A stretch of DNA of 64,000 nt. Origin: Candidatus Woesearchaeota archaeon (GTDB lineage Archaea > Nanobdellota > Nanobdellia > SCGC-AAA011-G17 > JAGVXY01). How positions within the stretch are numbered: position 1 is the stretch's first letter; each line of letters starts with the position of its first letter. A program made the translations under genes and the position numbers. Shown here in pieces: positions 28,743 through 28,845 of this stretch. The stretch covers positions 1,643 to 65,642 of the forward strand of contig JAGVXY010000010.1 in the NCBI GenBank assembly GCA_018303545.1, written 5' to 3'. The notes beneath the pieces are model-generated. The model had not been told where the DNA came from and ran no database searches. It was given only the letters and a program-made list of their open reading frames with translations.

Positions 28743-28845
28743 CGCGCCGGTAGTATAATGGCTAGAGTTTGTGCGTTAAAACACACAAGCGGCTTAAATT
28801 TCGGCCTTCCAAGTCGGAGATCCGGGTTCGACCCCCGGCCGGCGC
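28743..28845 (+). tRNA. tRNA gene, probably tRNA-Gly(UCC), 103 nt with a ~31-nt non-canonical insertion (putative intron) between the D region and the anticodon stem
   Basis: Acceptor GCGCCGG/CCGGCGC with discriminator A. T-arm CCGGG-TTCGACC-CCCGG. Anticodon arm TCGGC-CTTCCAA-GTCGG gives anticodon UCC. The D-arm cannot be folded canonically by hand. Confidence 0.7.

What the first reader, a model, noticed from the sequence alone, without database searches (positions are those of the whole stretch)
28743..28845. tRNA(Gly-UCC-like) gene with a ~31-nt insertion outside the canonical 37/38 intron site
- The acceptor stem, T-arm (TTCGACC loop) and an anticodon arm TCGGC-CTTCCAA-GTCGG are unambiguous.
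- They resemble archaeal tRNA-Gly(UCC).
- The gene is 103 nt long.
- The extra ~31 nt lie between position 9 and the anticodon stem, within GTATAATGGCTAGAGTTTGTGCGTTAAAACACACAAGCGGCTTAAATT.
- This suggests a non-canonical intron in the D-arm/position-20-26 region, or two small introns.
- Such introns are known in some archaea but are rare.
- A functional D-stem cannot be drawn without splicing.
- The only TATA-like element (CTATAAG) sits just 7 nt upstream.
Basis: seen in the sequence. Interest (0 to 1): 0.55.

Follow-up and report, generated by a model that had tools for sequence, protein, structure and literature searches.

The report
tRNA-Gly gene with D-arm intron
This is a real glycine tRNA gene of an uncultured Woesearchaeota archaeon, interrupted in its D-arm by a 31-base intron of the ordinary archaeal protein-spliced kind; the intron site is unusual but already documented, so the finding is correct but not a new kind of thing.

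Summary
Those nt fold into the only strict helix-bulge-helix-bulge-helix (BHB) motif in the gene. It has a 4-bp central helix (D-loop GGCU with intron GGCU), two 3-nt bulges, a 7-bp inner helix and a 3-bp outer helix. Cutting by the standard rule removes 28766-28796 (31 nt, tRNA position 22/23). The 72-nt product is called tRNA-Gly(UCC) by ARAGORN, which misses the unspliced gene.

A metagenome scan found 17 distinct archaeal-type tRNA-Gly(UCC) genes with an insertion at the same site (12-32 nt). Fourteen were analysed in a fixed register:
- BHB pairs are 97.9% intact, against 31-46% when the register is slid.
- The helices carry compensatory changes.
- Position 12 covaries with position 23 across the intron.

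An intronless Woesearchaeota gene has the predicted junction sequence (GAAT). One oddity is an A12·A23 mismatch in the spliced D-stem.

Position 22/23 and DPANN tRNA disruption are both already published. This is a new member of a known kind, of low to moderate interest.

The parts
28744..28846 (+). Complete tRNA-Gly(UCC) gene, 103 nt. No CCA is encoded; the discriminator A is at 28846.
   Evidence: Rfam RF00005 45.9 bits, model positions 1-71 of 71. The sequence was read directly.
28744..28765 (+). Exon 1, tRNA positions 1-22: acceptor 5' strand, U8 A9, D-stem 5' strand GUAU, D-loop AAUGGCUA, G22.
   Evidence: BHB search. ARAGORN cloverleaf of the spliced product. A21 and G22 are invariant in 14 relatives.
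28766..28796 (+). Intron, 31 nt (AGUUUGUGCGUUAAAACACACAAGCGGCUUA), inserted at tRNA position 22/23.
   Evidence: It is the only strict hBHBh' motif in the gene. Its removal gives a 72-nt tRNA-Gly(tcc). The same site is used in 17 distinct related genes.
28797..28846 (+). Exon 2, tRNA positions 23-73: AAU (23-25), U26, anticodon arm, 4-nt variable loop, T-arm, acceptor 3' strand, A73.
28760..28763 (+). BHB central helix, 5' strand: GGCU, i.e. D-loop G18 G19 C20 U20a. It pairs with 28791-28794.
   Evidence: 98.2% of cells are paired across the family, and pair 19:31 is C-G in 9 genes and U-A in 5.
28791..28794 (+). BHB central helix, 3' strand: intron GGCU.
28764..28766 (+). 5' splice-site bulge AGA. 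The predicted cut is after G at 28765.
   Evidence: 3-nt bulge. The cut-after-second-bulge-nucleotide rule is derived from PMC4090602. AGA is invariant in the family.
28795..28797 (+). 3' splice-site bulge UAA. The predicted cut is after A at 28796.
28767..28790 (+). Intron-internal hairpin, the inner helix h': 28767-28773 pairs with 28784-28790 (7 bp).
   Evidence: The three innermost-register pairs all show changes on both sides in relatives.
28757..28759 (+). Outer helix h, 5' strand (A14 A15 U16). It pairs with 28798-28800 (A24 U25 U26), so it excludes the mature D-stem.
   Evidence: 88.1% of cells are paired in the family.
28808..28810 (+). Anticodon TCC (Gly).
28700..28716 (+). Putative archaeal promoter: a purine-rich BRE-like AGAAA followed by the TATA-like TTTTTAAAT(T), 29-37 nt upstream of the mature 5' end.
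   Evidence: TTTATAAA is found at -31 to -33 in 11 related genes. The closest relative, L151, has GAAACCTTTATAAAG where the window has GAAACCTTTTTAAAT.
28849..28852 (+). Oligo-T run (TTTT) 3 nt after the gene, a likely archaeal transcription stop. A second run lies at 28865-28868.
   Evidence: relatives are also followed by T-rich sequence. This is an inference.

Best explanation
This is a functional, intron-containing tRNA-Gly(UCC) gene of a Woesearchaeota (DPANN) archaeon.
1. It is transcribed from a BRE/TATA promoter about 35 nt upstream.
2. In the precursor, D-loop nucleotides 14-20a do not form the mature D-arm. G18 G19 C20 U20a pair with the 3' part of the intron to form the 4-bp central helix of a strict bulge-helix-bulge motif. 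A14-U16 pair with positions 24-26, and the rest of the intron forms a 7-bp hairpin.
3. The archaeal tRNA splicing endonuclease (EndA) cuts in the two 3-nt bulges, after G22 (28765) and after the last intron A (28796).
4. An RtcB-type ligase joins the exons. The D-stem (10-13 with 22-25) can then form, and G18/G19 are freed for the tertiary contact with the T-loop.
5. CCA is added after transcription.

Shown here: the motif, the product, the conservation and the covariation. Inferred: the transcription, the cleavage, the ligation and the enzymes.
For: 1. Rfam tRNA match above threshold with a D-loop insertion.
2. Exactly one strict hBHBh' motif: central helix 4 bp, bulges 3+3 nt, inner helix 7 bp, outer helix 3 bp. 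It is the local minimum-energy fold of the D region.
3. A motif this good and of the right size arose in 20 of 20,000 dinucleotide shuffles of the segment.
4. Removing the intron gives a 72-nt product that ARAGORN calls tRNA-Gly(tcc), while the unspliced gene is not called.
5. Seventeen distinct archaeal-type tRNA-Gly(UCC) genes from metagenomes carry an insertion of 12-32 nt at the same site. Every one that was run through Rfam scores as a full-length tRNA, 54.8-60.9 bits.
6. On a fixed-register alignment of 14 of them, 97.9% of cells pair, against 31-46% when the partners are slid by 1-3 columns. Central pair 19:31 is C-G in 9 genes and U-A in 5, and all three inner-helix pairs have changes on both sides.
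7. Position 12 in exon 1 covaries with position 23, the first exon-2 nucleotide, across the intron: A-U 7, U-A 5, mismatch 2.
8. The intronless Woesearchaeota gene L015 has D-stem GTTT/GAAT and L054 has GTAT/GTAT. Both carry G22, as the predicted junction does.
9. The promoter box is conserved at about -32, and the sequence is identical in four assemblies.
10. Proteins of the window are annotated 'Candidatus Woesearchaeota archaeon'. DPANN lineages are reported to have many disrupted tRNA genes (PMC5829648), and 22/23 is a documented intron site (PMC4090602).
Against: - No expression or splicing data exist for this gene.
- No EndA or RtcB gene lies in the 64-kb window, so the enzymes are assumed from the lineage.
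- The spliced D-stem is weak: G10·U25, U11-A24, an A12·A23 mismatch, and U13·G22. The closest relatives have U12-A23.
- This copy has the lowest Rfam score of the family (45.9 bits against 52.9-60.9 for the other clearly aligned members).
- The whole-molecule minimum-energy fold (-42.7 kcal/mol) is not the BHB conformation, which scores -33.2 as drawn and -39.3 when constrained.
- In the relatives, the BHB register was picked by a script that maximised pairing subject to a 70-74 nt product. This inflates the paired percentage somewhat.
- Cutting one nucleotide earlier in both bulges would also give a 72-nt tRNA, with A22 instead of G22. This is excluded only by the standard rule and by G22 in the two intronless homologues.
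Confidence: 0.88

Rival explanations
1. The gene is a decaying or non-functional tRNA-Gly copy (pseudogene). The intron architecture is ancestral and real, but this particular copy has lost function through the U12-to-A change that breaks the 12:23 pair.
For: - A12·A23 mismatch, where 12 of 14 family members have a Watson-Crick pair.
- Lowest Rfam score in the family.
- The rest of the genome cannot be inspected for a second copy.
Against: - Every other tRNA feature is intact: 7/7 acceptor pairs, 5/5 anticodon and T stems, U8, A14, G18 G19, A21, the T-loop and A73.
- The BHB is the best in the family, with 7-bp inner and 3-bp outer helices.
- The promoter box and T-run are present.
- The sequence is identical in four assemblies from different samples.
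- An unrelated family member (L146) has the same A·A mismatch, which suggests it is tolerated.
Confidence: 0.07
2. The 31 nt are not removed. The RNA functions as a tRNA-like molecule with an enlarged D-arm carrying an extra hairpin.
For: No splicing data exist. The insertion forms a stable hairpin.
Against: - Insert length varies from 12 to 32 nt among relatives. There is no conserved sequence beyond what builds the 3-nt bulges and the 4-bp helix. That pattern is constrained for endonuclease recognition, not for a structural domain.
- G18/G19 and positions 24-26 would stay sequestered, and no D-stem could form.
- Position 12 covaries with the nucleotide that becomes its partner only after excision.
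Confidence: 0.02
3. The insertion is the scar of a mobile element or integration event (a target-site duplication GGCT...GGCT) in a tRNA gene used as an attachment site, and is not an intron.
For: - GGCT occurs as a direct repeat at both ends of the insert.
- tRNA genes are common integration sites.
- Two small ORFs with no Pfam match lie immediately downstream.
Against: - In relatives the two tetramers are complementary rather than identical: GGCC/GGTC, GGTT/GACC, GGTC/GACT. The repeat in the window is therefore a by-product of G·U pairing.
- There is no second copy of the tRNA 3' end and none of the insert anywhere in the window.
- At 31 nt the insert is far too short for a mobile element.
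Confidence: 0.02

Closest known systems
Archaeal BHB (protein-spliced) tRNA introns at non-canonical positions, as catalogued for Thermoproteales and other Crenarchaeota, Nanoarchaeum, Korarchaeum, ARMAN and Methanopyrus (Marck & Grosjean 2003; Sugahara et al. 2008; reviewed in PMC4090602)
   Same: - Same motif: a 4-bp helix flanked by two 3-nt bulges on opposite strands, with flanking helices.
- Same consequence: the gene is missed or scored low by standard tRNA finders.
- Position 22/23 is explicitly listed among the known sites.
- The intron length (31 nt) lies within the known 11-129 nt range.
   Different: - The host is a mesophile-like, AT-rich (33% GC) Woesearchaeota from groundwater-type metagenomes, not a thermophilic crenarchaeon.
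- The motif here is the strict hBHBh' form, whereas many non-canonical introns have relaxed hBH, HBh' or BHL forms.
- The same site in the same isoacceptor is shared by at least 17 distinct lineages. This looks inherited rather than recently transposed. That reading is an inference and was not tested phylogenetically.
Methanopyrus kandleri pre-tRNA-Glu(UUC) D-loop intron at 20b/21, and Aeropyrum pernix pre-tRNA-Thr D-loop intron (PMC5829648; PMC3241643)
   Same: The intron lies inside the D-arm, so the D-arm and the tertiary fold cannot form before splicing. Splicing of the M. kandleri example is supported by RNA-seq, as cited in PMC5829648.
   Different: Those introns have a relaxed HBh' motif and need a broad-specificity endonuclease. 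The window's intron has both bulges and all three helices. The position, isoacceptor and lineage also differ.
Canonical 37/38 archaeal tRNA introns
   Same: Same BHB geometry and, presumably, the same enzymes (EndA and RtcB).
   Different: The central helix is built from D-loop G18 G19 C20 U20a rather than from anticodon-loop nucleotides 32-35. The intron interrupts the D-stem/loop boundary, not the anticodon loop.
tRNA-Trp introns that carry a box C/D guide RNA (Haloferax and others)
   Same: An intron inside an archaeal tRNA gene that is removed through a BHB motif.
   Different: No C (RUGAUGA) or D (CUGA) box is present in the 31 nt (read directly). At 31 nt it is too short to hold a guide RNA.

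Membership tests
tRNA (Rfam RF00005), isotype Gly, anticodon UCC | Full-length match to the tRNA covariance model above the curated threshold | tested here: met
   45.9 bits against a gathering score of 29, model positions 1-71 of 71.
tRNA (Rfam RF00005), isotype Gly, anticodon UCC | A canonical cloverleaf of about 72 nt with anticodon UCC in a 7-nt loop, and the archaeal Gly acceptor features G1-C72, C2-G71, G3-C70 and A73 (the identity elements are from general knowledge) | tested here: met
   ARAGORN calls the spliced product tRNA-Gly(tcc), 72 nt. The acceptor pairs and A73 were read directly. One D-stem pair (12:23) is an A·A mismatch.
Archaeal BHB tRNA intron (protein-spliced) | A 4-bp central helix flanked by two 3-nt bulges on opposite strands | tested here: met
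   Central helix 28760-28763 with 28791-28794; bulges 28764-28766 and 28795-28797.
Archaeal BHB tRNA intron (protein-spliced) | Flanking helices h and h' (strict hBHBh' form) | tested here: met
   Outer helix 3 bp, inner helix 7 bp. A motif this good arose in 20 of 20,000 shuffles.
Archaeal BHB tRNA intron (protein-spliced) | Excision at the bulges restores a standard tRNA | tested here: met
   72-nt tRNA-Gly. The junction sequence matches the intronless homologues L015 and L054 at positions 22-25.
Archaeal BHB tRNA intron (protein-spliced) | The structure, rather than the sequence, is conserved among homologues (covariation) | tested here: met
   97.9% of cells paired against 31-46% when slid; changes on both sides in the central and inner helices; 12:23 covaries across the junction.
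Archaeal BHB tRNA intron (protein-spliced) | The host encodes the splicing endonuclease EndA and an RtcB-type ligase | not testable with these tools
   Neither gene is among the genes of the 64-kb window, and the rest of the genome is not available. EndA in DPANN lineages is reported in PMC5829648.
Archaeal BHB tRNA intron (protein-spliced) | The intron is actually removed in vivo | not testable with these tools
   No RNA data are available.
tRNA pseudogene or att-site fragment | Truncation, broken stems, loss of promoter, or a nearby duplicated tRNA end | tested here: not met
   The gene is full length with all stems intact except the single 12:23 mismatch. A promoter box is present. There is no duplicated 3' end.
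Split or permuted tRNA gene | The halves are encoded separately or in reversed order | tested here: not met
   Both exons are contiguous and in the normal order on one strand.

The most novel reading that the evidence does not exclude
The D-arm intron may be an old, vertically inherited and selectively maintained feature of tRNA-Gly(UCC) across a large part of Woesearchaeota.
- It is present in at least 17 diverged lineages. Lengths run from 12 to 32 nt and forms range from strict hBHBh' to minimal bulge-helix-loop. One lineage has it shifted to 24/25.
- Because it sequesters G18/G19 and positions 24-26, it would make splicing an obligatory folding checkpoint for this tRNA. Alternatively, it could protect the gene from integrating elements.
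- That would contrast with the view that non-canonical introns are recent, transposition-driven additions typical of Thermoproteales.
- The A12·A23 state in the window would then be a caught intermediate of the A-U to U-A compensatory switch seen across the family.
Probability: 0.2. Interest if true: 0.45.

Novelty: new member of a known kind. Interest (0 to 1): 0.27.

Why it matters
Practically, this gene is invisible to ARAGORN and scores low with a generic tRNA model. Annotations of this and related DPANN genomes may therefore appear to lack tRNA-Gly(UCC). The literature already notes incomplete tRNA sets in DPANN (PMC5829648), and the standard non-canonical-intron models were trained on other phyla (PMC8450103). 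The family collected here (one site, 12-32 nt, strict to minimal motifs) is a compact natural series of substrates. It could be used to test the specificity of the DPANN splicing endonuclease. Conceptually it adds nothing new: the mechanism, the motif and even the insertion position are already known.

Tried and rejected
It yielded only two useful archaeal intronless comparators (L015, L054) and no intron-bearing genome, so the distribution among named species is unknown.

2. About half of the 45 metagenome hits were false. They were bacterial tandem tRNA pairs or internal duplications (for example L126, L128-L130, L132-L134, L137, L140, L141, L153, L160, L165-L167, L169, L170). They were excluded by requiring 7/7 acceptor pairs and discriminator A. 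L138/L154 passed that filter, but their insert is a duplicate of the gene's own 5' part, so they were not counted.

3. Alternative splice registers were considered:
- Cutting after the first bulge nucleotide gives ...CUA|AAAUU... with A22. It was rejected on the standard rule and on G22 in the intronless homologues, but is not excluded experimentally.
- Cutting after the third bulge nucleotide gives the same product as the preferred cut.
- A 'case 1' BHB using 28767-28770 with 28787-28790 as the central helix gives an 83-nt product, and was rejected.

4. Two-intron models are unnecessary.

5. A permissive Rfam pass (E up to 1) found no further tRNA-like genes in the window beyond tRNA-Arg(CCT).

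6. Pfam gave nothing for the two small downstream ORFs or for the 836-aa upstream protein.

7. The sigma-70 promoter and intrinsic-terminator scan does not apply to an archaeon, and its hits were ignored.

8. The supplement of PMC5829648, which might list Woesearchaeota tRNA introns, is not held.

Full report
**What is in the sequence**

Window 28744-28846 (+) reads GCGCCGG-UA-GUAU-AAUGGCUAG-[31 nt]-AAU-U-UCGGC-CUUCCAA-GUCGG-AGAU-CCGGG-UUCGACC-CCCGG-CCGGCGC-A. The Rfam tRNA model matches it from end to end at 45.9 bits (threshold 29), but has to skip 34 nt in the D-loop. ARAGORN finds only the ordinary tRNA-Arg(CCT) at 58225-58300 and misses this gene. The coordinates are one base too far left. 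The window is 30-37% GC, whereas the spliced tRNA is 62.5% GC.

**The insertion is a strict bulge-helix-bulge intron**

An exhaustive search of the 103 nt looked for two 3-nt bulges on opposite strands, separated by 4 bp and flanked by at least 2 bp on each side. It returned a single solution:
- The central helix is G17 G18 C19 U20 with G48 G49 C50 U51 (window 28760-28763 with 28791-28794).
- The bulges are AGA (28764-28766) and UAA (28795-28797).
- The inner helix has 7 bp (28767-28773 with 28784-28790).
- The outer helix has 3 bp (28757-28759 with 28798-28800).

In the canonical 37/38 case, the first two anticodon nucleotides lie in the central helix (PMC4090602). Nucleotides 36, 37 and the first intron nucleotide therefore form the bulge, and the cut falls after the second bulge nucleotide. 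Applied here, the intron is 28766-28796 (31 nt), at tRNA position 22/23. A cut after the third bulge nucleotide gives the identical product, because both candidates are A.

The 72-nt product is GCGCCGGUAGUAUAAUGGCUAG|AAUUUCGGCCUUCCAAGUCGGAGAUCCGGGUUCGACCCCCGGCCGGCGCA. ARAGORN calls it tRNA-Gly(tcc), and still finds nothing in the unspliced form. Central helix, 5' bulge and inner helix are the minimum-energy fold of the D region taken alone. For the whole molecule, the BHB conformation is 3.4 kcal/mol above the minimum when constrained and 9.5 kcal/mol above it as drawn. A motif at least this good (inner 5 bp or more, outer 3 bp or more, product 70-74 nt) arose in 20 of 20,000 dinucleotide shuffles of the segment. 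A minimal motif of the right size arose in 5% of shuffles. The single-sequence evidence is therefore good but not overwhelming.

**Relatives settle the question**

The genome-collection scan was swamped by bacterial tRNA-Gly(UCC) genes. This did show that the D-arm GUAU/GUUU-ARUGG... is the general tRNA-Gly(UCC) D-arm. It also supplied two intronless archaeal genes:
- L015, a Woesearchaeota MAG, has D-stem GTTT...GAAT.
- L054 has D-stem GTAT...GTAT.

A metagenome scan that required an insertion gave 45 loci. The hits were then filtered for a closed acceptor stem and discriminator A. After that, 17 distinct genes have an insertion of 12-32 nt at the same point (exon 1 ending ...AG, exon 2 starting A/U-A-U) with the same BHB geometry. 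One further lineage (L136/L145) has the intron two nucleotides downstream, at 24/25. Of the eleven family loci run through Rfam, ten score 52.9-60.9 bits as full-length tRNAs; in the eleventh (L164) Rfam reports only a shorter 37.8-bit alignment. The intronless genes score 64.4 and 60.8.

I built a gap-free alignment of 14 distinct genes: exon 1, the first 4 and last 9 intron nucleotides, then exon 2 (A1). On it:
- The BHB structure is 97.9% paired, against 31-46% when the 3' partners are slid by 1-3 columns.
- Central pair 19:31 is C-G in 9 genes and U-A in 5.
- Each of the three inner-helix pairs shows four pair types.
- In the spliced cloverleaf, pair 12:23 joins exon 1 to the first nucleotide of exon 2. 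It is A-U in 7 genes, U-A in 5 and unpaired in 2.

A pair that forms only after excision, yet covaries, is direct evidence for the junction.

Caveat: the register in each relative was chosen by a script that maximised BHB pairing, subject to a 70-74 nt product. All 14 nevertheless have the same exon lengths (22 and 50 nt).

**Organism and context**

Three window proteins have exact NCBI counterparts annotated 'Candidatus Woesearchaeota archaeon' (MBS3107573.1 and others). The gene content is archaeal: GatD/GatE, proteasome, aCPSF1, Spt5-NGN, ATP-dependent ligase and deoxyhypusine synthase. No splicing endonuclease or RtcB lies in the window.

The tRNA sits 43 nt after the stop of an 836-aa protein with no Pfam match. 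Upstream, GAAACC-TTTTTAAAT (28701-28715) aligns with GAAACC-TTTATAAAG of the closest relative, L151. Eleven relatives have TTTATAAA at -31 to -33. A TTTT run follows the gene, and no CCA is encoded.

**Rivals**

- Mobile-element scar: the direct repeat GGCT...GGCT could suggest a target-site duplication. In relatives, however, the two tetramers are complementary and not identical. Neither the insert nor the tRNA 3' end recurs in the window.
- Retained structural insert: this is contradicted by the length variation, by sequence conservation confined to the BHB, and by the 12:23 covariation.
- Pseudogene: this reading rests on one real oddity. The spliced D-stem is G10·U25, U11-A24, A12·A23, U13·G22, that is, one mismatch where the closest relatives have U12-A23. 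This copy also scores lowest with Rfam. Against it, everything else is intact, and the sequence is identical in four assemblies from different samples. The unrelated member L146 has the same A·A.

**Comparison with what is known**

Protein-spliced BHB introns at non-canonical positions are well documented. Position 22/23 is among the listed sites (PMC4090602). D-loop introns have been studied in M. kandleri and A. pernix (PMC5829648). DPANN lineages, including Woese- and Pacearchaeota, are reported to have increased tRNA gene disruption and incompletely predicted tRNA sets. The tRNAscan-SE 2.0 intron models were trained on Cren-, Eury- and Thaumarchaeota (PMC8450103). I found no paper describing this particular intron family, but the searchable library is incomplete.

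**Verdict**

The observation and its main interpretation are correct. The feature is a new member of a known kind. It is useful for annotation and as a substrate series for DPANN EndA, but a specialist would not find it surprising.

Noticed in passing
window 28755 and 28797 (tRNA positions 12 and 23); also L146: After splicing, the D-stem has an A12·A23 mismatch. Of 14 family members, 12 have A-U or U-A at this pair. The window's gene and the unrelated L146 both have A·A, which would be the intermediate state of the A-U to U-A switch.
   Followed up: partly
L136 5393-5486 (-) and L145 2818-2911 (-): A related tRNA-Gly(UCC) has its 22-nt BHB intron at 24/25 instead of 22/23. Its central helix is the palindrome CTAG/CTAG. 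This looks like an intron that has slid by two nucleotides, or an independent gain.
   Followed up: partly
L161 9076-9159 (-), L146 2612-2696 (+): These are the shortest family members (12- and 13-nt introns). They keep the central helix and both bulges but have almost no inner helix (bulge-helix-loop form). The lineage's endonuclease presumably tolerates relaxed motifs.
   Followed up: no
L138 and L154 (metagenome contigs JACCDO010090281.1 and JACCDO010090410.1): An archaeal-type tRNA-Gly(UCC) whose 47-nt 'insert' contains a second copy of its own 5' part (GCATCCATAGTTTAGTGG). This is a partial tandem duplication, not an intron.
   Followed up: no
window 3867-11153 (+): A PrkA / DUF444 / SpoVR / second PrkA-domain gene cluster. 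This kind of cluster is better known from bacteria; here it is in a Woesearchaeota genome. It is preceded by Metallophos and SMC-like ATPase genes (Mre11/Rad50-like), according to the Pfam assignments.
   Followed up: no
window 29823-30877 (-): Two tandem, overlapping dCTP-deaminase-family (PF22769 DCD) paralogues of 178 and 173 aa.
   Followed up: no
window 28851-29519 (-): Two small ORFs (111 and 94 aa) lie immediately downstream of the tRNA gene, convergent with it. Neither has a Pfam match. Both are also present in L001 and L004. No att-like repeat of the tRNA end lies nearby.
   Followed up: partly
window 50791-54645 (-): A large DUF285-repeat protein is 1284 aa in the window but 1360 aa in the otherwise matching contig ERZ27254847:k141_73357. 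This looks like strain-level length variation in a probable surface protein.
   Followed up: no
window 58226-58300 (-): An ordinary intronless tRNA-Arg(CCT), 63.4 bits. It is the only other tRNA in the 64 kb, even at a permissive Rfam threshold.
   Followed up: yes
L162 4834-4919 (-): A second tRNA hit of 86 nt (46.7 bits) lies next to the intron-bearing tRNA-Gly in a relative. It could be a long-arm tRNA or another intron-containing gene, and was not examined.
   Followed up: no
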